A stretch of 45,326 bases of DNA, taken from the sequence record PX405663.1; one strand, given 5' to 3'. The position numbers were made by a program, and so were the translations under genes. The stretch is from a phage. Below the pieces are notes generated by a model. It had not been told where the DNA came from and did no database searches. It saw only the letters and a list, made by a program, of their open reading frames with translations. This document shows, one piece after another, positions 1-45,326 of the stretch; position 1 is the first letter of the stretch, and every line of letters starts with the position of its first letter.

Positions 1-818
1 TGGCACGCATCAACGCTGGGGCGGAAGTCGGCACGGGTAAGCCCCTTCTTGCCTCGGGAATACGCCTCCAGTGCGGCAATAGCGCGCTTGGATGCAAACT
101 TCGCGAATATCTCCAGCGCTTCTACCGAAATATCCCACTCCGACGCCCCGCCGCAATACGGCTGGAAGATAACCAGTCGCACGGTCGTAATGTCGTACAT
201 AGTTTGCAGCTTGCGCAGCAGGCCGAGCGCGTACAACATAAGCTGTTTGTTCTCTTTCGCCTCGACCTTATGCCGCCCGGTCTTCAGGTCGCCAACAATC
301 AGCATGTACGTCCCATCGGTCTTTTTCATGACCATGACCATATCTGCAGTACCGAACGTTTTAATCCTGTTGCCGTCGATCTCGTAGCCTGAGTGAAGGA
401 CGCGGGTCAGATCGGCGCGCATCTCAAGCTGAACAAACTCCGCCACTTCGATGAGCGGTCGCCAGTGGTCGATGTACGCGTCGCACTGTTTCACCATGTC
501 GTCGTTGACCAGTACGCCGCCTTTCGGTGCTTTCGGGTGTGCCTTTACTGGCCCCTTGCCTTCGTTCTCGACGTAGCACCCTTTATACGTCTTTGCGGTT
601 ATCAGCTTTTCACCGGCGATAATGCGGTTTAGCACCACTTCAGATACGGTGTGCATACTCGTACCGTTAATCGCGGCTTGCCCGGATTCGTTCGGGATAT
701 CTTTTTCTACCACCAGGGCAGCTGGGCAACCCATCCATTTTTTAGCACCGGATGGCCCGAGTAATGAGTGTTCCGTATTGCTACCGGATTGCGTCTTACG
801 TTTTGGTTTAATCGCCAT
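1..818 (-). CDS. Cas4/RecB-family PD-(D/E)xK exonuclease (DUF2800-like), N-terminal part; ORF runs off the window start and continues at 45199..44587 across the circular junction (about 476 aa in total)
   Basis: Codon-by-codon hand translation of the minus strand from ATG at 816..818 (TAATG overlap with upstream stop) is open to position 1: MAIKPKRKTQSG...WMGCPAAL...GTADMVMVMKKTDGTYMLIVGDLKTGRHKVEAKENKQLMLYALGL...RPSVDACQ; N-terminal Cys, D/E-K core with QxxxY, and CQWCRFADQC (C-x2-C-x5-C) spanning the junction are typical of Fe-S Cas4/AddB-type nucleases. Confidence 0.7.
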   Translation of the reverse strand, partial: MAIKPKRKTQSGSNTEHSLLGPSGAKKWMGCPAALVVEKDIPNESGQAAINGTSMHTVSEVVLNRIIAGEKLITAKTYKGCYVENEGKGPVKAHPKAPKGGVLVNDDMVKQCDAYIDHWRPLIEVAEFVQLEMRADLTRVLHSGYEIDGNRIKTFGTADMVMVMKKTDGTYMLIVGDLKTGRHKVEAKENKQLMLYALGLLRKLQTMYDITTVRLVIFQPYCGGASEWDISVEALEIFAKFASKRAIAALEAYSRGKKGLTRADFRPSVDAC

Positions 819-1306: not shown

Positions 1307-1825
1307 TTAGTCTTCCAGTTCGAAATAAGTTTCGACGATTTCTTTAAGATCTTTGTGGAAGTCTTCGACGTCGTCATCTTCCAGCTTGGCGATTGATTTG
1401 ATCTCGAACGATTCCAGCAGGTCGTCGAATTCGTCGTTGGCATCGTCGTCGTCACCACCAGCGATAATAGCGGCATACTGTTTGATCTCGTCGCGCATCT
1501 CTGCCAGCGGATCGGCATCTTTCTTGCCTTTGCCTTTCGCCGGTGCTTTTTTACCCTTCGCCGGTTTTTCGTCTTCGGCTTCTTCATCGTCGTCATCTTC
1601 TACGACTTCTTTTTTGGCCTTACCTTTAGCCGGTGCTTTTTTGGTTTTCGCCGGTTTTTCGTCTTCGGTTTCATCGTCGTCATCTTCTACGACTTCTTTT
1701 TTGGCCTTAGACGGCTTCTTGTCTTCCGGCTTACCAACGGCAGCGCCAACGGTTTCATAATGCTTAGCGATGGTTTCCAGTGCTACTACGCCGCGAGTAA
1801 TCAGGTTTACGATTTGTTCAAACAT
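1307..1825 (-). CDS. highly charged tandem-repeat protein (172 aa), first gene of the minus-strand arm
   Basis: ORF track; GGAGA SD; protein has two copies of an approx 25-aa block KAKKEVVEDDDDE..EDEKPAK.KKAPAKGK and an acidic C-terminal half; underlying approx 75-bp tandem DNA repeat near 1540..1720. Confidence 0.6.
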   Translation of the reverse strand: MFEQIVNLITRGVVALETIAKHYETVGAAVGKPEDKKPSKAKKEVVEDDDDETEDEKPAKTKKAPAKGKAKKEVVEDDDDEEAEDEKPAKGKKAPAKGKGKKDADPLAEMRDEIKQYAAIIAGGDDDDANDEFDDLLESFEIKSIAKLEDDDVEDFHKDLKEIVETYFELED

Positions 1826-1925
1826 GGTATATCTCCGATTGGTTAAGTTTGGCGTCCGGGCGGTATGCCCGGTCGACGAGGGAGATATTAGATTGGTTGC
1901 AGAAGGGAGTCAACAACTAATTTCA

Positions 1926-1962
1926 AAAAAAAAGCGCCGAGGCAAAATGCAACGGCGCTAAC
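1926..1962 (-). terminator. hairpin plus T-run (read on minus strand) in the divergent control region; possible leader attenuator
   Basis: Plus strand shows A9 then AGCGCCG...CGGCGCT inverted repeat; on the minus strand this is a stem-loop followed by T9. Confidence 0.35.
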
Positions 1963-2025
1963 CAATAAGAGACAATGAGACGGGAATTATTATTACACGC
2001 GTGCGCGCCCGTTTCAATATCCAAA

Positions 2026-2089: not shown

Positions 2090-2419
2090 ATGAATGTAAA
2101 CGACGCAATCGAAATGTTAACGAAGACTGTTAGCAGTGAAACAAGCCGGTCATGGGCTTATACCGATGCCGTTGGGGCGGTGTTGTTTGAAATCGAACGT
2201 CTGCGACTTACCGAAAAAGAATTGCGCGCGAAGCTGGAATTACTCAACGGTACTGCAGCAAGCAAGCTGCAAAAGCACAATGAAGAAATGGAAGAATACA
2301 AAAAACAGGTTATCCGTTTGCGCGCCGAGGGCAAATCCTGGGCAATGATTGCCGAGTTGACTGGGATTAATCAGAGCACAGTGCGCTCCTGGGTACGCAA
2401 TAATAAAACTTCTAAGTAA
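2090..2419 (+). CDS. coiled-coil plus C-terminal helix-turn-helix DNA-binding protein (109 aa)
   Basis: ORF track; GAGGG SD; C-terminal SWAMIAELTGINQSTVRSWV resembles an HTH. Confidence 0.55.
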   Translation: MNVNDAIEMLTKTVSSETSRSWAYTDAVGAVLFEIERLRLTEKELRAKLELLNGTAASKLQKHNEEMEEYKKQVIRLRAEGKSWAMIAELTGINQSTVRSWVRNNKTSK

Positions 2420-4694: not shown

Positions 4695-4794
4695 ATTTTG
4701 CGCGCATTGGTTGCCATTTTGCGTGCTTTTAGTCGGTCGTATTGGTTGCCGTGTAGTGTAAATATAGTGAATAGTTATGCAATAAAACTGCATA

Positions 4795-4965
4795 AAGTAA
4801 GCGGGACAAAAAGCGGGACAACCAGGGGGCGGGACAAAGCGGGACAGCACCCCTGTCCCGCCCCGGATGACGCGGCCTGGAGAGGAGCGGGACAGCGGGA
4901 CAGCACCCCAGTCTTTCAGACTAGACGGGGGGTCTGGCACCCCCCTCGTCTGAGACTGCATAAAA
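4795..4965. repeat. noncoding array 1: GCGGGACA(A/G) repeats in direct and inverted orientation ending in a conserved 51-bp imperfect hairpin (4908..4958)
   Basis: At least 7 copies of GCGGGACA within about 120 bp including the palindrome GGGACAGCACCCCTGTCCC; near-identical copy of the terminal element at 22101..22150. Confidence 0.8.
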
Positions 4966-5112
4966 TCCAGGATTGCATAATACACGGCAGCGTGATGCGA
5001 ATTGCGGTCGTCGACGAACTAGGCAACCAATACGAGTTGCAGAATGGTGGGTGAAAAATGCAGTTTGCAGTTTCAGCAGATAGCGATCAACTTTTTCATG
5101 CGCGTGATTGAT

Positions 5113-5169
5113 ATTGGTTGCACCCACCCTGGCACCCTGCTATATTGGTTGCACACCAACATGAGGACC
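5113..5169 (+). promoter_or_regulatory. tandem TATTGGTTGCA promoter-like motifs with TATATT -10 and conserved leader
   Basis: TTGCAC, 17 nt, TATATT; 27-nt stretch TATATTGGTTGCACACCAACATGAGGA is identical to the minus-strand sequence at 16214..16240. Confidence 0.55.
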
Positions 5170-5174
5170 GAACA

Positions 5175-5510: not shown

Positions 5511-5780
5511 ATGGACCGCAGACGAGCTAAACGGCTTTCCTGGAGCATCCCATTGCATTGCGTACGAATATGGGCTAAGAATGCGAATGAGGGCGATTCT
5601 GTGTTCTGGTGCTACCGCGATGATGTGAAGCCGTTAACGCAGACTCGCTACTTGCACCAGTTCGCAGCACAACATGATTTCAGGGTGCGGACTTCCTTGC
5701 AACCAATGGGAATACGTATTACATTACGCCGGAAGCCCACCGTTGAGCGGGTAGGCAAACACTGGAGACTGAGCAAATGA
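5511..5780 (+). CDS. hypothetical protein (89 aa)
   Basis: ORF track; AAGGGG SD. Confidence 0.4.
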   Translation: MDRRRAKRLSWSIPLHCVRIWAKNANEGDSVFWCYRDDVKPLTQTRYLHQFAAQHDFRVRTSLQPMGIRITLRRKPTVERVGKHWRLSK

Positions 5781-8488: not shown

Positions 8489-8515
8489 AAGCCCGGATAA
8501 TTCCGGGCTTTTTAT
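8489..8515 (+). terminator. rho-independent terminator after the lysis cassette
   Basis: AGCCCGGATAATTCCGGGCT followed by TTTTTATT. Confidence 0.55.
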
Positions 8516-8548
8516 TGCTTGACTCGGGACCGTGGTATATTGTCCACG
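8513..8548 (+). promoter_or_regulatory. promoter-like element with inverted repeat CCGTGG..CCACGG flanking TATATTG
   Basis: TTGCTTGACT...TATATTG upstream of 8575; palindrome suggests an operator. Confidence 0.35.
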
Positions 8549-8574
8549 GTCCACTAATCAGGAATTAATTAAAT

Positions 8575-10399: not shown

Positions 10400-11784
10400 T
10401 GCGTAACTATGCGGCAGAACACCGCGCACTGGAGCGCACGATCGCAAAGCGCAACCGACCACCACGCCCGACGCGCGTTGCGCAGGCCGTCCGCCTGTAC
10501 CAGCCTGATTGCCTTCCGCACCAGGTGGAACTACTGCGCGACACGAAGACTAAAATCCTCGGCCTGTGTTCCGGCTTCGGTGGTGGAAAGTCGTGGGTCG
10601 CTGCGAGAAAGGTCATCCAGCTTCTGACACTGAACCCGGGGCATGACGGCATCGTGACCGAGCCGACTATCCCACTCCTGGTTAAAATCATGTATCCGGA
10701 ACTGGAGAAGGCTTTCGACGAGGCGGGCTTCCGGTGGAAGTTCAACAAGCAGGACAAGATCTATAGCGTTCTGGTGAAAGGAAAATGGACCCGCGTTATC
10801 TGCGAGTCAATGGAGAACTACACCCGCCTAATCGGGGTTAACGCCGCGTGGATTGTTGCCGACGAGTTCGACACCACGAAGCAAGACGTCGCAATGGCGG
10901 CTTATCACAAATTGCTCGGTCGTCTGCGTGCAGGTCTTGTCCGCCAGTTTGTCATCGTGTCCACGCCGGAAGGCTTCCGGGCGATGTATCAAATCTTCGA
11001 GGTGGAGAAGGATAGCCAAAAGCGCCTGATCCGGGCGAAGACCACCGACAACCACCATTTACCGGCAGACTTTATCGACACGCTTCGCAGTCAGTACCCG
11101 GCTAACCTGATCGATGCGTACCTGAACGGTATGTTTGTTAACCTTACGTCGGGCGCGGTATACAAGATGTTTAACCGTGAGGAGAACGCAAGCACCGAAG
11201 AAGTGCAGCCGGAAGACACGCTGATTATCGGTATGGACTTTAACGTCACGAAAATGGCGGCGGTCGTGTATGTAAGACGGCAGCGTACCACCGAGAACAA
11301 GGAGTTCCGCGACGAGATTCACGCGGTGGATGAATTTGTGGACCTGTTTGACACACCGGCTATGATTGAGGCGATCGAGGAGCGCTACCCAGATCATTGC
11401 GCTGCCGGTAAGGTTGTCGTTTACCCGGACAGCAGCGGCAAATCCCGCAAGACGGTCAACGCGTCGTCGTCCGATATCGCACAACTGGAAGATGCGGGCT
11501 TCGAGGTGGAATATGACAGTGTTAACCCGCCTGTGAAAGACCGATTGATCGCGATGAATACGATGATGTGCAACTCGAAGGGTGTGCGCCAGTATTTTGT
11601 CAACCTGGATAAATGCCCTACACTAGCGAAATGTCTGGAACAGCAGGTGTACGACCTGAAGAAAGGCGAGCCGGATAAAACTGCCGGTGTGGACCACATG
11701 AATGACGCAGCGGGCTACCCTATTGCGCACTTGTTCCCTGTGATTCGTCCGATCGCCGTTGTTCCTACCGTAGATTTCTACTAA
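10399..11784 (+). CDS. terminase large subunit
   Basis: 461-aa ORF; Walker A GFGGGKS near N-terminus, ADEFD Walker B-like, nuclease-like C-terminal half. Confidence 0.85.
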   Translation: MRNYAAEHRALERTIAKRNRPPRPTRVAQAVRLYQPDCLPHQVELLRDTKTKILGLCSGFGGGKSWVAARKVIQLLTLNPGHDGIVTEPTIPLLVKIMYPELEKAFDEAGFRWKFNKQDKIYSVLVKGKWTRVICESMENYTRLIGVNAAWIVADEFDTTKQDVAMAAYHKLLGRLRAGLVRQFVIVSTPEGFRAMYQIFEVEKDSQKRLIRAKTTDNHHLPADFIDTLRSQYPANLIDAYLNGMFVNLTSGAVYKMFNREENASTEEVQPEDTLIIGMDFNVTKMAAVVYVRRQRTTENKEFRDEIHAVDEFVDLFDTPAMIEAIEERYPDHCAAGKVVVYPDSSGKSRKTVNASSSDIAQLEDAGFEVEYDSVNPPVKDRLIAMNTMMCNSKGVRQYFVNLDKCPTLAKCLEQQVYDLKKGEPDKTAGVDHMNDAAGYPIAHLFPVIRPIAVVPTVDFY

Positions 11785-14851: not shown

Positions 14852-15616
14852 TTATCGCGGAATACCGCAAATCTCGTTGAGAGTTTTCACATCCAGCGCC
14901 ACCGCCGTGGATTTTGGCTTGTCCGGGTAAGGGATGAATTGCTCAACTTCAGGCCATGCCTTAATCAGCTTCTTGTCAGTATTGTGCAGGTCCAGCACAC
15001 CGGTAACGGTCAACTTGAACGCGTCATACTTAGCCCGCAACTCACGGCGGGCCTTGTCGTTACGGTCCAGGCGCTTACAGAAATCATGATCCGCCGGGAA
15101 ATCCGCACGGCAGTGTGGCTTATAGATCGGCAGCGCTTTCCCGTCCTCGTCCACTTCGCACACTGACGCGAGCATAACTTCTTCAAACCCCGGTACGATA
15201 TCGCCTAAATCGGGGGATAGCTTATTCATGTATTTATATTCCCAGTATCCGCGATGTGCGCGGCATTGGCGACCGTCACCGCTCAAGGATAAGGTGCGAA
15301 CATTTCCGCCTGCGTTGATTTCGAAAGTGGCGTCGTAAACGCTGCCGATACCTTTCGGGCGGTCGGCGTCATAACGATATGTCGCCTTGTTGGTGTAGAC
15401 GCAGACGCCGTACATCTGCGACGGGTCATCGCTGATTGCCTCGATACGCTCGCGGAGCGCTGCGAACGTGCGAATGCCTTCCGGCATACAGTCCAGCGTA
15501 ATGGCGTACGCCAGGTCGCGAGAGTCCATCATGATTTGTTTGGCTTCGGTTGCGATTTCGTGGTCGCGCAGGATGTTAGCCAGAATCTGATTTTTAATGT
15601 CTTTCGTCAGTCTCAT
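14852..15616 (-). CDS. hypothetical protein (254 aa), antisense island within the morphogenesis module
   Basis: ORF track; GAGGA SD 8 nt upstream; no motif recognised. Confidence 0.6.
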   Translation of the reverse strand: MRLTKDIKNQILANILRDHEIATEAKQIMMDSRDLAYAITLDCMPEGIRTFAALRERIEAISDDPSQMYGVCVYTNKATYRYDADRPKGIGSVYDATFEINAGGNVRTLSLSGDGRQCRAHRGYWEYKYMNKLSPDLGDIVPGFEEVMLASVCEVDEDGKALPIYKPHCRADFPADHDFCKRLDRNDKARRELRAKYDAFKLTVTGVLDLHNTDKKLIKAWPEVEQFIPYPDKPKSTAVALDVKTLNEICGIPR

Positions 15617-15697
15617 TTTTGTGTCCTCGTTGTTGGGGCTTTCGCCCCGTTTGGTTTAGTTAAACTTGATGTTGCCGCCAATAGGGTGCTTTGTTAG

Positions 15698-16210
15698 CTA
15701 CAAACGCATCGGCATGATAACAAGGAAGGCACCGCCTTTGAACAGCACACGTGTCGCCTTGTCTACTCCCTGAAATTCCAGTTTTAAGCTATCAAACTTA
15801 CGGTCGAACAATTTAGCAATTTTGCAGGCGTCGGACAGGTATACCCCGGCAAACCCTATAGCCTCCACTTTAGCGCTGTCGAAAGACGTAACACGACGCC
15901 AGTCTGGGAATCTGCCGTCTATGATCTCTACGGGTATGGTACCGATTAATACGTCTTTACTATCAAAGAACGCAGCGGATGTGCCGTCTATGTTGCAGTA
16001 TTCGAATTTTGTAGGTAAGCGGCCTTTAATTGCTACTATTTTACTTTCACCTTCGGGAATAACCGCGGACCCGCAGAACAAACGATGACCGTCGGTGGCC
16101 ACGATGAATCCTTTCTCGTCGAAAAATACACCCTTCAGATAGTACCGCACGTCATTAGTTGCGGCGCACATCATAGCGGCTTTAAGATCGGCATAGTTAA
16201 CTTTAATCAT
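15698..16210 (-). CDS. truncated DnaN-like protein (DNA polymerase III beta sliding-clamp domain fragment, about 170 aa)
   Basis: Track ORF 15698..16657 trimmed to the ATG 7 nt after GAGGA; VRYYLKGVFFDEKGFIVATDGHRLF, IIDGRFPDWRRV and C-terminal VIMPMRL closely match conserved E. coli DnaN segments. Confidence 0.7.
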   Translation of the reverse strand: MIKVNYADLKAAMMCAATNDVRYYLKGVFFDEKGFIVATDGHRLFCGSAVIPEGESKIVAIKGRLPTKFEYCNIDGTSAAFFDSKDVLIGTIPVEIIDGRFPDWRRVTSFDSAKVEAIGFAGVYLSDACKIAKLFDRKFDSLKLEFQGVDKATRVLFKGGAFLVIMPMRL

Positions 16211-16213
16211 TGT

Positions 16214-16262
16214 CATTTCCTCATGTTGGTGTGCAACCAATATACTGCAACCAACATACGCA
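16214..16262 (-). promoter_or_regulatory. tandem TATTGGTTGCA promoter-like motifs driving the antisense DnaN-like operon
   Basis: Minus strand reads TATGTTGGTTGCAGTATATTGGTTGCACACCAACATGAGGA; 27 nt identical to 5143..5169. Confidence 0.55.
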
Positions 16263-16358
16263 ACGCAAGCGAATTTTGCGATTATTTTTATCGCTGATAA
16301 TATTAGAAGCGTGAAGTCAAGCGGGTGGCCCGCTTTGCCACAATCCCAGGGGGATAGC

Positions 16359-21823: not shown

Positions 21824-22160
21824 TTAAGCGGGACAGGCGGGACGTCCCGTTCTGTCCCGTTCCGTCCCGCCTCCTGCAAAACTGCATACTTACGCACCAC
21901 ATTTGCATAAACTAAAAGCGGGACAGGGGTGCTGTCCCGATCCGTCCCACCCCAAAAATGTGAATGTCTATTCAGTTTTAGTGCATAAAACAAACGGGAC
22001 AAAAAGCGGGACAGAATTGGGCGGGACAAAGCGGGACAGCACCCCTGTCCCCGCCAGTGCTGCCGCGGGTTTTAGCCAATCAGGACAGGCGGGACAAAGC
22101 CCAGTCTTTCAGACTAGACGGGGGTCGATGGCCCCCCTCGTCTGAGACTGAATAAGGTTT
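21824..22160. repeat. noncoding array 2: more than 15 GGGACA-core repeats in both orientations plus the conserved 51-bp hairpin (22101..22150), inserted between the tail chaperone and tape measure genes
   Basis: GCGGGACAG, GCGGGACG, CGTCCCG, CTGTCCCG and others; the palindrome GGGACAGCACCCCTGTCCC is shared with array 1. Confidence 0.8.
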
Positions 22161-26283: not shown

Positions 26284-27024
26284 ATGTTAACGAAGAAGGT
26301 TAAAAGCGATATCGCCGCACACGTCGCGGCATGTCTGCCGGAAGAAGCCTGCGGCCTTGTTGTCATGGTGGGTCGCAAACAAGTTTTTATCCCGTGCGTT
26401 AACGTATTCGAAGACCCTACCGGTGCGCGCTCGCGTAAGGACGCGTTTACCATTAGTGATACGGCCTGGATGGACGCTGAGGATATGGGCGACGTCGTTC
26501 GCGTAGTCCACTCACACCCGGGTCAGCGCGAGTTAACCCCATCATTGGGTGACGTTAACGGATGCAACGGCAGCGGCGTCGTCTGGACCATCACTAACGA
26601 ATATGGCGACTTTATCGAGATCGACCCGGAAGACCCGCCGCTGGTGGGCCGCCGATTTGTTCTCGGAATTACGGATTGTTACGGCCTCGTCATGGACTGG
26701 CACAAAAAGCAGGGGGTAAACCTGCCAGACTTCCGCGTGCCGTATAACTGGTGGGAGACAGGCGAAAACCTGTATATGGACAATTGGTACGGTGCGGGCT
26801 TCAGGGAATGCGAGGAGAATACGCCGGGGGCGATGGTTATCATGCAGATCAGCGCGCCAGTACCTAACCATGCCGGGATATTCCTTCCGGGCAACCAACT
26901 ACTACACCACATCTACGGCAGCCTGTCGAGCGTGATACCCTTCCGATCAGGATTTTTCCGGGACAATGTGGTTAAATGGGTACGTCATAAAGACCTACCG
27001 GGGAATATAACAGAATGGCAATGA
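26284..27024 (+). CDS. tail tip protein K-like (MPN/JAB metalloprotease plus NlpC/P60 domains)
   Basis: EACG...VHSHPGQRELTPSLGD JAMM motif; TDCYGL and NHAGIF Cys/His NlpC-P60-like motifs. Confidence 0.75.
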   Translation: MLTKKVKSDIAAHVAACLPEEACGLVVMVGRKQVFIPCVNVFEDPTGARSRKDAFTISDTAWMDAEDMGDVVRVVHSHPGQRELTPSLGDVNGCNGSGVVWTITNEYGDFIEIDPEDPPLVGRRFVLGITDCYGLVMDWHKKQGVNLPDFRVPYNWWETGENLYMDNWYGAGFRECEENTPGAMVIMQISAPVPNHAGIFLPGNQLLHHIYGSLSSVIPFRSGFFRDNVVKWVRHKDLPGNITEWQ

Positions 27025-32292: not shown

Positions 32293-32334
32293 GGTATCAT
32301 CTCTTATATTTGGTTGAGTTTTAGTATTACACCG

Positions 32335-32362
32335 CTCAACCAGGATTGCAACCAATTTACGA
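32335..32362 (-). promoter_or_regulatory. TATTGGTTGCA-type promoter-like motif oriented toward the antisense lipoprotein gene
   Basis: Minus strand reads AAATTGGTTGCAATCC about 45 nt upstream of the lipoprotein start; overlaps the tail fibre SD on the other strand. Confidence 0.45.
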
Positions 32363-35837: not shown

Positions 35838-35905
35838 TTTTTAGTGGGGGCGGTATTGCCCCCGACGTGATTAAGATACTGCAACCAACCTATTGGTTGC
35901 AAGTG
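35838..35905 (-). promoter_or_regulatory. inverted pair of TGCAACCAA/TTGGTTGCA motifs followed by a leader hairpin
   Basis: Plus strand 35880..35902 TGCAACCAACCTATTGGTTGCA; GGGGGCGGTATTGCCCCC hairpin between motif and SD. Confidence 0.45.
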
Positions 35906-36360
35906 AATTTTGCAACGTTTATCGCATAAATTTTCGGGACCAGATCGCCGCACGCCCGACGAATTGCCGCGATGTTCTTCGGACAGTCTTCAATGATGAC
36001 CAGTTCCGACACGTCCGCGTAACAGACCATTTTGAACACGGCGCACGCCTTAAACTCTGGTGGCGGGGTGTCGTCCAGCATGTGGCGCATAAACAACCGG
36101 CCTACAGGGAATACCTCCAATTGCTCGGCGGTAGTGTCCCAACATTCTCTCTGCCGGTTGGTCAGATACGCGATCTCGAAGCCTTGATCTCTGTACATGC
36201 GCAGCAGCGGCAGCATATCCATGTTCAGGTCTTCGCGTACGTGCGCTTTGTGCCACTTCGCCCAAAATGTTGATTTGGTTTTTATACCCGGAACCAGGTC
36301 GGCACGCGCATCGCTTGAACCGTTAATAACGCCATCCAGATCGCAAATCAGTAATTTCAT
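35890..36360 (-). CDS. HAD-superfamily phosphatase-like protein
   Basis: 156 aa; N-terminal LICDLDGVI matches HAD motif I; GAGGAG SD. Confidence 0.5.
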   Translation of the reverse strand: MKLLICDLDGVINGSSDARADLVPGIKTKSTFWAKWHKAHVREDLNMDMLPLLRMYRDQGFEIAYLTNRQRECWDTTAEQLEVFPVGRLFMRHMLDDTPPPEFKACAVFKMVCYADVSELVIIEDCPKNIAAIRRACGDLVPKIYAINVAKFTCNQ

Positions 36361-37501: not shown

Positions 37502-37580
37502 TCCAGGTATTAAAAAGGGCGTCCAAACCGGACACCCTCAATATAATGCAACCAATACGATTATGCAACCAATTTACGCA
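37502..37580 (-). promoter_or_regulatory. tandem TATTGGTTGCA motifs with TATATT, followed by leader hairpin plus T-run
   Basis: Minus strand reads AAATTGGTTGCATAATCGTATTGGTTGCATTATATTGAG then GGGTGTCCGGTTTGGACGCCC TTTTT then SD and ATG. Confidence 0.5.
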
Positions 37581-40450: not shown

Positions 40451-40490
40451 TTCTAAAATCCTCGATAGGGCTAACCTGCCAACTATACTG

Positions 40491-40769
40491 CTACGCGACC
40501 AATTCAGCAACCAATAAATCACAGTCGGCTATGTTGTCGATGACGCGAACGTCCGCACCGCGGCGGGCCATTCGCTCATGTTCTCGTACCTGGTGCGGCT
40601 TCGGTTTTCCTCTGGGGCGCTTCACTTCGACGAACACTATTTTGCCGTTGATTATAATAATCAGGTCGGGCGCACCTGCGCGCCCCTCCCATGCCAGTTT
40701 GCGGCAGAATCCGCCGACCTCTTTCACCCGTCGCATCAGGTGACTTTGAATCTTGCCTTCTGGTGTCAT
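40491..40769 (-). CDS. VRR-NUC domain nuclease
   Basis: 92 aa; APDLIIIINGKIVFVEVKRPRGKPKPHQVREHERM matches the VRR-NUC D..EVK..Q pattern. Confidence 0.65.
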   Translation of the reverse strand: MTPEGKIQSHLMRRVKEVGGFCRKLAWEGRAGAPDLIIIINGKIVFVEVKRPRGKPKPHQVREHERMARRGADVRVIDNIADCDLLVAELVA

Positions 40770-43478: not shown

Positions 43479-44261
43479 TTAACGGCGGCGACGTTTGCGT
43501 GGCGCTTCGTCTTCGTCGTCGTCCTCATCTTCGTCATCGCGTGGCTTACGACGTTTGCGAGGTTTTTCATCTTCCTCGTCGTCGTCGTCATCGCGGCGCT
43601 TGGACTTTTTGGACTTGCGCGGCTTGTCATCTTCATCATCGTCATCACGACGTTTTGACTTCTTAGCCTTGCGCGGTGCTTCGTCTTCGTCATCGTTGTC
43701 CAGGTCTTCATCGGAGCAAGAAGAACCACCACCACCGAAGGATTCGCCGTCATCACGGAAGCGCAGACCCAGCAAGCCAGCACCGAGTCCCTTGCCGTTG
43801 GTATTGTTCCACGCCCAGATATCGAGTGACACGTTGCAATAACAACCGGAGTAGATCTCCTGGCCTTCGATCTCGTCGCCGTCGATGGTCAGGCCTTGTT
43901 CCGTCTGCTTCTCGCCGAGTGACGTTTGAATGATCGGCTGTTTGAACGATTTGGCGTTGATGTACAACATGCCTTCGAACTCTTCGGTTACTTCATCGCG
44001 CTCGTCGCCGTCGCGAACTGCGCATTCCTTAGAATCCTGTGCGTAGTGGCGGTCCATCCACTTATCGGCATTCTTCTCGGATTTCAGCTTGTCGGTGAGC
44101 ACTGCGCGCGCTGCCGCTTCCACTTTGTCCACCTGCGGATCTTCTTTATCAAGAAGAATCACGGCGCGGTATGCCGGTTTTTGTCCATCCTGTTTAGGGG
44201 TATCACGTTCCCAAATTTTCAGGAAACATACGCGCACATTTTTCAGGTTGACTTTAGCCAT
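43479..44261 (-). CDS. DUF2815-like putative ssDNA-binding protein with charged repeat C-terminal tail
   Basis: Track ORF 43479..44282 trimmed to MAKVNLKNVRV with GAGGAA SD; C-terminal repeats of DDDDE/KPRKSKKSKRR blocks; sits between exonuclease and polymerase genes. Confidence 0.5.
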   Translation of the reverse strand: MAKVNLKNVRVCFLKIWERDTPKQDGQKPAYRAVILLDKEDPQVDKVEAAARAVLTDKLKSEKNADKWMDRHYAQDSKECAVRDGDERDEVTEEFEGMLYINAKSFKQPIIQTSLGEKQTEQGLTIDGDEIEGQEIYSGCYCNVSLDIWAWNNTNGKGLGAGLLGLRFRDDGESFGGGGSSCSDEDLDNDDEDEAPRKAKKSKRRDDDDEDDKPRKSKKSKRRDDDDDEEDEKPRKRRKPRDDEDEDDDEDEAPRKRRRR

Positions 44262-44351
44262 TTTCCAATTCCTCATTTTCACATGTATCGGGGCTATTGG
44301 AAGCCACCCCGTTCGGCTTGGTTGCTAATCTACTTGGTTGCGCCTAAGCGG

Positions 44352-44594
44352 TCAAGCATTTTCATTAAAAAGATTTCGGGTAACGTAGTTGGTGGCGTTC
44401 TCGATCCAGCTTAACGGCGGTCGGTCGATGTTCTTCGCCACCCACCCGACGGCGGCGTCGCTATAGCCGTCGTCAAGCCAGCGGGTTGGATGACGAATCA
44501 TCCAGGCCACCATTAGCACGCCTTGCGCGCAATGCAGGATAAAGCCCAGCGCGCCGAGCAAAAACATCAATAAGATTGCGAATACTTTATTCAT
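44352..44594 (-). CDS. small membrane protein (80 aa)
   Basis: ORF track; GAGGAC SD; two hydrophobic helices. Confidence 0.45.
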   Translation of the reverse strand: MNKVFAILLMFLLGALGFILHCAQGVLMVAWMIRHPTRWLDDGYSDAAVGWVAKNIDRPPLSWIENATNYVTRNLFNENA

Positions 44595-45326
44595 TGCTTA
44601 AGTCCTCATCAGTGGCTTCAGACCATGCAGGGCGCGGGTCGTCGATTGGGGCTAATACCGGTTTAGCCGGTGCGCGTGTGATTTTATCACACAGCTTCGC
44701 CCACACTTTTGGTTTTTCGTCCTTCAATACCTTCTCGGCATCCGTAGGGCTGAGCAATGTTTCTTTGTACATCACATCGCGCTTGATCCGGGCCTTCGTG
44801 AAGATTTCAATCACTTCGCTCTCGTCCGCCCACTTACGGATCCCTTCCTTACCGGCAACCATCTTGAGGCCCAGCGATTCGCCATCGCCCGCCATTACAG
44901 CCTTAAATACCGCGGACTCGATCGCTTTGATGTGCTGGCGCATTGCGTCCAGGCCCTCATAAGCCTTGCGCAGTTCCGCAGCGCTCATAGCTCCGGGGGC
45001 CGCTTCTTTCTTACCACGCTTCGCACGTCGTGCCGCCTTCCGGGCTTCGCGGGCCATATTGCGGTCGTGGTTGGCGCATTCTTCCTCTGTCGCAATACTC
45101 ACGTCGTCGCCCAGGTCTTCGTCGGTTGCCGTTGGCGGTGTCATCGTATCGATTGCGGCCTTAGCGCGGGCACTACACTGATCCGCAAATCGGCACCACT
45201 GGCACGCATCAACGCTGGGGCGGAAGTCGGCACGGGTAAGCCCCTTCTTGCCTCGGGAATACGCCTCCAGTGCGGCAATAGCGCGCTTGGATGCAAACTT
45301 CGCGAATATCTCCAGCGCTTCTACCG
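44587..45326 (-). CDS. C-terminal part of the junction-spanning Cas4/RecB-family exonuclease (unique part 44587..45199; 45200..45326 duplicates 1..127)
   Basis: Track ORF 44587..45144 is the downstream part of a frame that stays open upstream to the window end and is in frame with the minus-strand ORF at 818..1. Confidence 0.7.
   Translation of the reverse strand, partial: VEALEIFAKFASKRAIAALEAYSRGKKGLTRADFRPSVDACQWCRFADQCSARAKAAIDTMTPPTATDEDLGDDVSIATEEECANHDRNMAREARKAARRAKRGKKEAAPGAMSAAELRKAYEGLDAMRQHIKAIESAVFKAVMAGDGESLGLKMVAGKEGIRKWADESEVIEIFTKARIKRDVMYKETLLSPTDAEKVLKDEKPKVWAKLCDKITRAPAKPVLAPIDDPRPAWSEATDEDLSNE
45200..45326. repeat. 127-bp exact duplicate of positions 1..127 (assembly overlap of a circular or terminally redundant genome)
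   Basis: Identical sequence at both window ends; the coding frame is continuous across the join. Confidence 0.85.

What the first reader, a model, noticed from the sequence alone, without database searches (positions are those of the whole stretch)
5113..5169. Genome-wide family of promoter-like elements built on TATTGGTTGCA, always oriented with the downstream gene
The motif (A/T)ATTGGTTGCA(N) recurs in intergenic regions at 1891..1901 (+), 5113..5123 and 5145..5155 (+), 16233..16257 (-), 32346..32356 (-), 35880..35902 (inverted pair), 37537..37564 (-, tandem) and 40507..40516 (-), often as tandem copies and often with TTGCA(N) placed 17-18 nt upstream of a TATATT-like hexamer. This looks like an extended -35 or activator site defining a phage promoter class recognised by host RNA polymerase with or without a phage factor.
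Basis: partly seen in the sequence, partly recalled or inferred. Interest (0 to 1): 0.6.

Follow-up and report, generated by a model that had tools for sequence, protein, structure and literature searches.

The report
Conserved operator word inside phage promoters
A nine-base word, TTGGTTGC(A), is built into the core of about nine host-type promoters of this Dhillonvirus (HK578-like) E. coli phage and is unchanged across the whole clade, so it is most likely the binding site of a phage regulator, probably the small helix-turn-helix protein gp49, and not just a promoter hexamer.

Summary
The motif is real. TTGGTTGC occurs 18 times against about 2 expected, and 14 copies lie in the 7% of the genome that is non-coding. 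The window is a complete, circularly permuted Dhillonvirus genome.

Fourteen copies sit inside sigma-70-like promoter units, in three fixed registers relative to the -10 hexamer:
- over the -35, where TTGCAN is the hexamer with a 17-nt spacer;
- directly upstream of the -10, in either orientation, including promoters that already have a consensus TTGAC -35;
- directly downstream of the -10.

The 8-mer is 100% conserved in ten relatives, against 89% for neighbouring intergenic bases. It is still the most frequent or near-most frequent 8-mer in relatives with about 70% nucleotide identity, although copy number and spacing change.

This pattern fits an operator for a sequence-specific protein better than a simple extended -35. 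The only recognisable HTH protein is gp49 (2090-2419), whose coiled-coil and HTH half is the most conserved protein segment in the clade.

I favour promoter occlusion (repression and autoregulation). A dual repressor/activator switch remains plausible. Nothing here was tested experimentally, and I found no published description. It is a new member of a known kind.

The parts
5114..5121 (+). Motif copy in register A (over the -35) of the gp51-operon promoter. TTGCAC (5118-5123), a 17-nt spacer, then TATATT (5141-5146).
   Evidence: invariant in 11 genomes while the spacer diverges
5145..5152 (+). Motif copy in register C (+4..+11 from the first base of the -10, i.e. about -8..-1) of the same promoter. 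It is part of the dyad TTGGTTGCACACCAA (5145-5159).
1893..1900 (+). Motif copy lying reversed in the spacer (register B, -10..-3) of the leftward early promoter TTGACT-17-TAATAT (1913..1885, minus strand) that faces gp48.
   Evidence: conserved; doubled to two adjacent copies in L011, L012 and L014
2030..2075 (+). Predicted promoter of gp49/helicase-primase: TTGACA (2030-2035), 17 nt, TAGTTT (2053-2058). It is followed by the dyad TTGGTCATTAACCAA (2061-2075). In distant relatives this place carries an exact reversed motif copy.
   Evidence: sequence reading
2090..2419 (+). gp49 (109 aa; HK578 gp45), the candidate binder. It has a variable N-terminus, a predicted 58-residue helix and a C-terminal helix-turn-helix.
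   Evidence: Pfam HTH_23, HTH_28 and Sigma70_r4_2 above their cut-offs; model pLDDT 84; residues 46-106 nearly invariant; most conserved protein segment against L014 and L012
4707..4714 (+). 'GCC-type' copy (GCATTGGTTGCC) in the 480-nt non-coding gap after the helicase-primase gene. It is not in a promoter unit.
   Evidence: one to two extra copies in relatives
4742..4749 (+). GCC-type copy. A weak promoter-like unit, TTGCCG-18-AATAGT (4746-4775), points into the GGGACA/hairpin element.
5023..5030 (-). GCC-type copy on the opposite strand. Together with 4707 and 4742 it brackets the GGGACA/hairpin element.
5699..5706 (-). Copy inside the coding sequence of orf89, antisense. It is conserved even where the flanks diverge.
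16233..16254 (-). Two copies, 16247-16254 in register B and 16233-16240 in register C, in the promoter TTGCGT-18-TATATT (16268..16239) of a minus-strand beta-clamp-like gene (15698-16192).
32348..32355 (-). Register A copy in the promoter TTGCAA-17-AATACT (32351..32323) of the lipoprotein gp26 and the DUF6453 protein gp25.
   Evidence: L004 has a second copy here
35881..35900 (.). Inverted pair. 35881-35888 (minus strand) is in register B. 35893-35900 (plus strand) supplies the TTGCAA -35 of the promoter 35902..35873 of gp29.
   Evidence: replaced by a direct tandem in L004
37548..37572 (-). Tandem copies 17 nt apart. 37565-37572 is in register A (TTGCAT = -35) and 37548-37555 is in register B. 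The -10 is TATATT (37545-37540). The promoter drives gp33 and the Dam-like methyltransferase.
40495..40514 (-). Register A copy 40507-40514 (TTGCTG-17-TATAGT, 40510..40482) plus a degenerate copy, TTGGTCGC, at 40495-40502. The promoter drives gp39, gp38 and the helicase gp37.
44318..44341 (+). Two reversed copies inside the leftward promoter TTGACC-17-TAGATT (44355..44327) of the SSB/DNA-polymerase genes. 44334-44341 is in register B and 44318-44325 lies just downstream of the -10.
26891..26898 (-). Copy inside a tail gene. It is probably a chance occurrence: it has no TA prefix, it is absent in L004 and L006, and it is not in a promoter unit.

Best explanation
TTGGTTGC(A), usually preceded by TA, is the recognition site (operator) of a sequence-specific DNA-binding protein. 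It is embedded in the core of at least nine sigma-70-type promoters of the early, replication and accessory ('moron') genes of Dhillonvirus phages.

Host RNA polymerase reads these promoters. In one architecture the site's own TTGCAN serves as a weak -35 hexamer. In the other, a consensus TTGAC -35 is used and the site lies reversed in the spacer.

Every promoter carries at least one copy over the -35, directly upstream of the -10, or over -8..-1. A bound protein should therefore exclude RNA polymerase. This would give coordinated shut-off or feedback control of all these transcription units, including the regulator's own operon.

The most likely protein is gp49 (HK578 gp45). It is made from the early rightward operon together with the helicase-primase, and is predicted to be a long coiled coil ending in a helix-turn-helix.

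Shown here: the site family, its promoter registers and its conservation. Inferred: that a protein binds it, that the protein is gp49, and that the effect is negative.
For: - Enrichment and non-coding bias: 18 copies against about 2 expected, 14 of 18 in non-coding DNA.
- All-or-none 8-mer: one-mismatch variants are not enriched.
- Fourteen of 18 copies lie inside TTGnnn-16..18-TAnnnT units at three quantised registers, with register B used in both orientations.
- Pooled over 14 genomes and 246 copies, co-oriented copies peak at -27, -10 and +4 and anti-oriented copies at -10/-9, -22/-21 and +7. There are 1.05 promoter contexts per copy against 0.093 for 200 permuted 8-mers.
- Reversed copies occur in the spacers of promoters with TTGACT or TTGACC -35 hexamers.
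- All 104 motif columns are 100% identical across relatives, against 88.7% for the other intergenic columns (p=7e-11). The sequence between copies diverges, and copy number and spacing change: 9, 13, 14, 16, 17 and 31 nt.
- The dyad TTGGT-N5-ACCAA occurs three times against 0.05 expected, each just after a -10, and one is in gp49's own leader. As RNA hairpins these are not significant.
- gp49 is the only protein of 30 scanned with an HTH above Pfam cut-offs.
- gp49's C-terminal half is the most conserved protein segment against distant relatives: 85% and 82%.
- The gp49 family is found only in this clade, always next to the helicase-primase gene.
Against: - There is no binding, transcription-start or expression data for any Dhillonvirus.
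- The co-variation test failed to discriminate. The motif is identical even where the gp49 recognition helix differs: P0026/L136, and CHD5UKE2.
- An invariant site could equally reflect an invariant host protein.
- Other small proteins of unknown fold could be the binder.
- The existence of two distinct promoter architectures hints that the factor may do different things at each, namely activate where its site replaces the -35.
- The strict sigma-70 scan does not call the register-A promoters, so their activity without a factor is not established.
- Related genomes are not independent samples.
Confidence: 0.5

Rival explanations
1. Dual switch, the closest rival to the first reader's idea. The same phage factor activates the promoters whose weak -35 is replaced by a co-oriented site (gp51, gp26, gp29, gp33, gp39, beta-clamp-like gene). 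It represses the promoters with a consensus -35 and a reversed site in the spacer (leftward early promoter, SSB/polymerase promoter, its own promoter). This would give an early-to-middle switch in the manner of phi29 p4, lambda CI at PRM/PR, or T4 MotA.
For: - There are two clearly distinct architectures.
- The register-A site is always exactly 17 (16-18) nt from the -10, also in distant relatives.
- Its -35 matches the consensus at only 3-4 of 6 positions, and the strict scan misses these promoters.
- gp49 is an early product with a sigma-70-region-4-like HTH.
Against: - Several register-A promoters also carry a co-oriented copy abutting or overlapping the -10/+1 (5145, 16233, 16247, 37548), which should hinder RNA polymerase.
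- The -10 hexamers are strong (TATATT, TATAGT) and TTG is present, so an activator may not be needed. Strong promoters with a TTGC-type -35 exist; this last point is from my own knowledge and was not tested.
- There is no homology to known activators.
Confidence: 0.28
2. The site is bound by a host protein, for example a CytR-like factor that recognises GTTGCA-containing octamers in direct or inverted orientation with flexible spacing. The phage uses it to tie its promoters to host physiology.
For: - The site is absolutely invariant across phages whose own proteins have diverged, which is what a non-co-evolving host partner would give.
- The CytR octamer GTTGCATT and pentamer TTGCA, with variable spacing and orientation, are described in PMC3454398. 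Some copies read GTTGCATT (37548; the gp51 promoter in most relatives).
Against: - The conserved part is TTGGTTGC. The TTGG is outside the CytR motif, and the ATT end of the CytR octamer is not conserved here.
- CytR operators are sandwiched between two CRP sites, and no CRP-like site lies next to any motif promoter: 13 found against 14.5 expected, none adjacent.
- The sister phage T1, on the same host, does not use the word in promoters.
Confidence: 0.08
3. The sites are primarily replication elements: initiator-binding iterons for the gp49/helicase-primase pair. The origin would lie in the 480-nt gap after the helicase-primase gene, and the promoter copies would be secondary.
For: - Five copies cluster in the 480-nt non-coding gap right after the helicase-primase gene, in an arrangement of two forward copies, a repeat/hairpin element, then a reverse copy. 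This arrangement is conserved in distant relatives.
- gp49 is always co-transcribed with the helicase-primase.
- A preprint treats the HK578 gp45-gp46 operon as related to replication initiation (10.64898/2026.07.10.737580).
Against: - Most copies are dispersed singly or in pairs at fixed registers inside promoters all round the genome, which an origin function does not explain.
- The gap is dominated by a different repeat, GCGGGACA.
- No origin has been mapped.
Confidence: 0.1
4. There is no factor. The word is simply the preferred -35 region of a family of promoter cassettes that spread by duplication.
For: - TTGCAN functions as a plausible -35.
- The 5145 and 16233 copies share a longer identical stretch including the ribosome-binding site.
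- The promoter regions at 16239-16279 and 35873-35913 are 78% alike.
Against: - Copies in the spacer, at +1, in reverse orientation and outside promoters are conserved just as perfectly.
- TTGG is not needed by sigma-70.
- Flanks diverge while the 8-mer never does, even at about 70% genome identity.
Confidence: 0.04

Closest known systems
Dispersed asymmetric operators of temperate-phage repressors: mycobacteriophage L5 gp71 operator/'stoperator' sites and P1 C1 operators (from my own knowledge, not tested here)
   Same: A short asymmetric site is present in many copies scattered round a phage genome, mostly in short intergenic regions, singly or in pairs. It is recognised by one small HTH protein and gives coordinate control of many transcription units.
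   Different: - The orientation here is mixed and not uniformly co-directional with transcription.
- The sites lie at fixed registers inside promoter cores, not within transcribed regions.
- The phage is of a virulent type, with no integrase or immunity repressor in the annotations of relatives.
- There is no sequence relationship.
Global kor regulon of IncP-1 plasmids (KorA/KorB operators in many promoters; from my own knowledge)
   Same: One small HTH protein with a dimerisation helix has operators overlapping the -10 or -35 of many promoters of a replicon, including its own, coordinating replication and accessory functions.
   Different: The kor operators are palindromic, and the system is on a plasmid, not a phage. 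No homology was detected.
T4 middle promoters (MotA box plus AsiA sigma appropriation) and phi29 p4
   Same: A phage-specific word replaces or overlaps the -35 at a fixed distance from a good -10 and defines a promoter class read by host polymerase. The same factor set turns early promoters down.
   Different: - The MotA box is centred near -30, 11-13 nt from the -10. Here the 8-mer spans about -39..-32, with a normal 17-nt spacer.
- Extra copies here lie over the spacer and the -10/+1.
- No MotA or AsiA domains were found among the 30 proteins scanned.
E. coli CytR operators (PMC3454398)
   Same: They share a GTTGCA core, occur as direct or inverted repeats and have flexible spacing.
   Different: They need flanking CRP sites, which are absent here. 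The conserved positions also differ: TTGG is conserved here and the ATT end is not.

Membership tests
Sigma-70 (housekeeping) promoter | A TTGACA-like hexamer, a 16-18 nt spacer and a TATAAT-like hexamer with A2 and T6 | tested here: met
   Nine units meet relaxed criteria, TTGnnn plus at least 4 of 6 in the -10. Only the two with TTGACT or TTGACC pass the stricter scan.
Sigma-70 (housekeeping) promoter | Transcription starts 6-8 nt downstream of the -10 | not testable with these tools
   No 5'-end or RNA-seq data for any Dhillonvirus were found.
Repressor operator overlapping a core promoter | The site overlaps the -35, the spacer, the -10 or +1, so that the bound protein excludes polymerase | tested here: met
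   Registers -27..-20, -10..-3 and +4..+11 relative to the first base of the -10.
Repressor operator overlapping a core promoter | A cognate protein binds the site specifically | not testable with these tools
   gp49 is proposed from its HTH, its conservation and its distribution. The co-variation test was uninformative.
L5-type stoperators | All sites are oriented the same way relative to the direction of transcription and act within transcribed regions | tested here: not met
   Six of 18 copies are antisense, and 14 of 18 lie in promoter cores.
T4 MotA-box middle promoter | The box is centred at about -30, 11-13 nt upstream of the -10, with no -35 | tested here: not met
   The 8-mer ends 19-20 nt before the -10, and TTGCAN sits at the normal -35 with a 17-nt spacer.
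T4 MotA-box middle promoter | MotA and AsiA homologues are encoded | tested here: not met
   No such Pfam domains were found in the 30 non-structural proteins scanned. The remaining proteins are annotated structural or enzymatic in relatives.
Lambda CII-activated promoter | TTGC-N6-TTGC direct repeats straddling the -35 | tested here: not met
   There is one match in the window, in coding sequence at 10881, and none at motif sites.
CytR/CRP-regulated promoter | CytR half-sites lie between two CRP sites | tested here: not met
   CRP-like sites number 13 against 14.5 expected, and none is adjacent to a motif promoter. Definition taken from PMC3454398.
Replication-origin iterons | A single cluster of repeated initiator sites beside an AT-rich unwinding region near the initiator gene | tested here: inconclusive
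   Five copies cluster in 4695-5174, next to the helicase-primase gene, but 13 others are dispersed at promoters.
Sigma factor (for gp49) | Region 2 (-10 recognition and core binding) as well as region 4 | tested here: not met
   Only the C-terminal 40 residues match Sigma70_r4_2, HTH_23 or HTH_28. The rest is one long helix. Fold search gives only generic HTH hits, none with E<=0.001.

The most novel reading that the evidence does not exclude
gp49 is a minimal 'region-4-like' adaptor. It reads TTGGTTGCA in place of the -35 and recruits host RNA polymerase to a phage-specific promoter class. The same protein, bound in the reverse orientation in the spacer, shuts the consensus early promoters. 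Through the site cluster next to its partner helicase-primase it also marks the replication origin. One 109-residue protein would then couple the early-to-middle transcription switch to replication initiation in a widespread group of virulent coliphages.
Probability: 0.1. Interest if true: 0.7.

Novelty: new member of a known kind. Interest (0 to 1): 0.45.

Why it matters
Dhillonviruses are among the most commonly isolated E. coli siphophages. They are in the BASEL collection and are candidates for therapy and engineering, yet I found no published account of their transcription programme. This motif gives a testable map of about nine promoters, a single candidate regulator, and a handle for engineering, for example regulated promoters or predictable expression of inserted genes. 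It also explains why the C-terminal half of a tiny 'hypothetical' or mis-annotated ('transposase', 'Gam') protein is among the most conserved sequences of the clade. It does not reveal a new principle, because dispersed operators for one small repressor or activator are well known in other phages and plasmids.

Tried and rejected
- **Physical genome end.** From I first thought that many GenBank records start inside the 480-nt gap, which would make it a physical genome end. That was wrong. The apparent start came from a paralogous repeat (4767-4931 against 21960-22124) being joined by the search logic.
- **RNA hairpin.** The TTGGTTGCACACCAA leaders fold weakly, -3 to -5 kcal/mol, with non-significant z-scores.
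- **Co-variation between the gp49 recognition helix and the motif.** This could not be done. The motif is identical in CHD5UKE2 (swapped N-terminus) and in L136, whose gp49 homologue is only 46% identical.
- **Tandem motif in IMG/VR.** The scan gave 12 Dhillonvirus-like loci and 108 unrelated ones, which are coding or tandem repeats without promoter context.
- **T1, the sister family.** It has 8 copies, mostly in coding sequence and without promoter context, and it has other frequent words of its own.
- **Known architectures.** CytR/CRP was not met and lambda CII repeats were not met.
- **Rfam and tRNA scans.** Nothing was found.
- **gp49 against solved structures and folds.** Only generic HTH matches came up: LuxR/GerE, resolvase, IstA and DeoR.
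- **Literature.** Searches for the motif string, and for Dhillonvirus or HK578 with 'promoter' or 'transcriptome', gave no description.
- **PWM scan.** It added no further copies beyond the exact 8-mers.

Full report
**What the window is.** The 45,326-nt window is a complete, circularly permuted genome of a Dhillonvirus (HK578-like) E. coli siphophage. It is 90-93% identical to EK99P-1, EE09, Zumzum and about 160 other records. I mapped the EK99P-1 annotation onto the window to get a gene map. The first and last 127 nt are identical, which looks like an assembly overlap, so the unique length is 45,199 nt. About 7.3% of the genome is non-coding.

**Checking the observation.** ATTGGTTGCA with up to one mismatch occurs 15 times against 3.2 expected. 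The core TTGGTTGC occurs 18 times against 1.96 expected, with a maximum of 6 in the shuffles. Fourteen of the 18 lie in non-coding DNA (p=2.6e-13), and two of the remaining four only touch the last codons of a gene. One-mismatch variants are not enriched, so the 8-mer behaves as all-or-none. Seven copies were missed: 4707+, 4742+, 5023-, 5699-, 26891-, 44318+ and 44334+. The claim that copies always point with the downstream gene is wrong for 5023, 5699, 35893, 44318 and 44334. It is misleading for 1893, which lies reversed in the spacer of a leftward promoter.

**Anatomy relative to promoters.** I scanned for TTGnnn, 16-18 nt, then TAnnnT with at least 4 of 6 matches. Fourteen of the 18 copies fall inside such a unit, at only three registers measured from the first base of the -10 hexamer.
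- Register A, -27..-20, co-oriented. The site's TTGCAN is the -35 with a 17-nt spacer. Copies: 5114, 32348, 37565, 40507.
- Register B, -10..-3, directly upstream of the -10. Co-oriented copies: 16247, 35881, 37548. Reversed copies: 1893 and 44334, in promoters whose -35 is TTGACT or TTGACC.
- Register C, about +4..+11, which is roughly -8..-1 relative to the start. Copies: 5145 and 16233, and 44318 reversed.

Copy 35893, reversed, supplies the TTGCAA -35 of the gp29 promoter. Pooled over 14 genomes and 246 copies, the same peaks dominate. Co-oriented copies peak at -27 (55), -10 (30) and +4 (23). Reversed copies peak at -10/-9 (26), -22/-21 (19) and +7 (10). The motif gives 1.05 promoter contexts per copy, against 0.093 for 200 permuted 8-mers. 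The genomes are related, so these counts are not independent, but the pattern holds in the distant ones.

**Genes served.** The promoters drive these transcription units:
- the gp51 operon;
- a beta-clamp-like accessory gene;
- the lipoprotein gp26 and the DUF6453 protein gp25;
- gp29;
- gp33 and the Dam-like methylase;
- gp39, gp38 and the helicase gp37;
- SSB and the DNA polymerase;
- the leftward early operon starting with gp48.

No copy precedes the structural genes on the plus strand (8575-31075).

**Conservation.** In alignments of eight motif-bearing intergenic regions from up to ten relatives, all 104 motif columns are 100% identical. The other columns average 88.7%, even though they include -10 hexamers and ribosome-binding sites (p=7e-11). 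The spacer between 5114 and 5145 differs at many positions between genomes, while both copies are untouched. Arrangements change. L004 has a second copy at the gp26 promoter and a direct tandem instead of the inverted pair at gp29. Relatives have one or two more GCC-type copies in the 480-nt gap. They also have an extra small gene preceded by TTGACT, a reversed copy, CATACT and another reversed copy.

Metagenomic relatives with only about 70-72% nucleotide identity (L011, L012, L014, L136) tell the same story. GCAACCAA is the most frequent 8-mer in the first three and is tied for second in L136, at the same promoters and with spacings of 9, 13, 16 or 17 nt. The upstream copy is again 16-17 nt from the -10. 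In L011, L012 and L014, gp49's own leader carries an exact reversed copy. The window has the dyad TTGGTCATTAACCAA there (2061-2075). The dyad TTGGT-N5-ACCAA occurs three times against 0.05 expected, each just after a -10. As RNA hairpins these are insignificant.

**What this means.** Sigma-70 has no use for TTGG upstream of the -35. It also has no use for a specific 8-mer in the spacer or at +1, in either orientation. An invariant word with free copy number and spacing but fixed registers on the promoter is the signature of a separate sequence-specific protein. Because every regulated promoter has at least one copy overlapping a core element, the default expectation is occlusion of RNA polymerase. 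This step is inference.

**Candidate protein.** Of 30 non-structural proteins scanned, only gp49 (2090-2419) has an HTH above Pfam cut-offs, matching HTH_23, HTH_28 and Sigma70_r4_2. The model (pLDDT 84) has a short N-terminal helix, one 58-residue helix and a terminal HTH. Structure and sequence comparisons give only generic HTH relatives. The family is tiny: 26 clusters among 5.8 billion proteins. Every contig I examined has the order gp49 then helicase-primase. Its N-terminal 45 residues are swapped between lineages, while residues 46-106 are almost invariant. That half is the most conserved protein segment between the window and L014 or L012, at 85% and 82%, compared with about 80% for DNA polymerase and the large terminase. 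A regulator locked to about 17 sites would be constrained in just this way. But the motif is unchanged even where the recognition helix differs (INVSTIKNWIYRK in P0026), so the link remains circumstantial. A preprint treats the HK578 equivalents (gp45-gp46) as a replication-initiation operon and reports an OLD-escape deletion in its promoter. It does not mention the motif.

**Sign of regulation.** I favour repression and autoregulation, for four reasons:
- copies lie over -8..-1 and next to the -10;
- reversed copies lie in consensus promoters;
- there is an operator-like dyad in gp49's own leader;
- the -10 hexamers are strong, and TTG is present in the register-A promoters.

The two distinct architectures leave room for a dual switch, with activation where the site replaces the -35 and repression elsewhere. 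My estimates are about 0.5 for the operator/repressor model, 0.28 for the dual switch, 0.1 for a primary replication role, 0.08 for a host factor and 0.04 for no factor.

**Comparison with known systems.** The closest analogues in function are dispersed asymmetric operators of phage repressors (L5 gp71, P1 C1) and the kor regulon of IncP plasmids. These comparisons are from my own knowledge. Membership fails for several families:
- L5-type stoperators, because orientation is mixed and the sites lie in promoter cores;
- MotA boxes, because the spacing is wrong and no MotA or AsiA is encoded;
- CII sites;
- CytR/CRP.

The word is not used in promoters of T1, nor in other viral contigs carrying tandem copies. 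I found no published description, although the library is incomplete.

**Verdict.** This is a real, clade-specific and strongly constrained regulatory word, most likely the operator of gp49. It is a new member of a known kind of system and is of moderate interest.

Noticed in passing
window 1-127 and 45200-45326: There is an exact 127-nt direct repeat at the two ends of the window. This is consistent with the overlap left by assembling a circular or terminally redundant genome. The unique length is 45,199 nt, and the exonuclease gene (gp45) runs across the junction.
   Followed up: yes
window 4767-4958 and 21960-22150: Two paralogous non-coding elements, 71-84% alike, lie in the 480-nt gap after the helicase-primase gene and in the 398-nt gap before the tape-measure gene. 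Both are packed with the octamer GCGGGACA / TGTCCCGC: 14 copies against 2.4 expected, 13 of them here. Both end in a long G+C hairpin (CAGACTAGACGGGGGG...CCCCCCTCGTCTGAGACTG). As RNA, 4776-4965 folds with z=-3.7. There is no Rfam match. This is a second repeat family, distinct from the motif, and could be an origin, a packaging site or a non-coding RNA.
   Followed up: partly
window 1927-2017, minus strand: A near-consensus leftward promoter, TTGAAA-17-(TG)AATAAT at 2017..1989, is followed about 55 nt later by a strong intrinsic terminator (GCGCCG...CGGCGC plus T9, about 1966-1927). This lies upstream of the motif-bearing promoter at 1913..1885. The stretch is almost invariant in relatives. 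It may be a short leader or small RNA, or an attenuator needing antitermination.
   Followed up: no
window 37511-37539, minus strand: The gp33 promoter is followed immediately by a stable hairpin plus a T5 tract (GAGGGTGTCCGGTTTGGACGCCCTTTTT; -17.6 kcal/mol, z=-2.9). The predicted start would fall inside the 5' arm. The structure could therefore stop read-through from the upstream HNH gene while letting promoter-initiated transcripts pass.
   Followed up: partly
window 8527-8552: A perfect 9-bp inverted repeat flanks a -10-like TATATT (GGACCGTGG-TATATTGT-CCACGGTCC) directly upstream of the exonuclease gene gp62. It is conserved in all relatives and has no recognisable -35. It could be the site of a different regulator, or a late promoter.
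   Followed up: no
window 8511-8526, compared with L001, L002, L003, L007 and L009: Relatives carry an extra small gene here (protein MARKDIW...) behind a promoter of the form TTGACT, reversed motif, CATACT, reversed motif. In the window the gene and both motif copies are deleted, leaving only TTGACTCG.
   Followed up: partly
window 2090-2224 (gp49 residues 1-45): The N-terminal third of gp49 is replaced by unrelated sequences in different lineages, including a 149-residue form in CHD5UKE2. The coiled-coil and HTH part stays nearly invariant. This modular exchange suggests that the N-terminus contacts a variable partner.
   Followed up: partly
window 1513-1692, within gp48-like (1307-1825, minus strand): A 90-nt tandem duplication (80% identity) encodes alternating lysine/alanine/proline-rich and acidic stretches in the first gene of the leftward early operon. 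Similar acidic repeats occur in the SSB gene (43495-43713).
   Followed up: no
window 14852-16192, minus strand: Two minus-strand genes are embedded in the plus-strand structural region. One is an Nmad5 ('nucleotide modification associated domain 5') protein, matched at E=1.7e-59. The other is a weak DNA-polymerase-III-beta-like protein. The latter is driven by a motif-bearing promoter.
   Followed up: no
many GenBank records of relatives: gp49 orthologues are annotated variously as transposase, resolvase or 'DNA recombination nuclease inhibitor gamma'. None of these is supported by the domain evidence here, which shows only a C-terminal HTH.
   Followed up: partly
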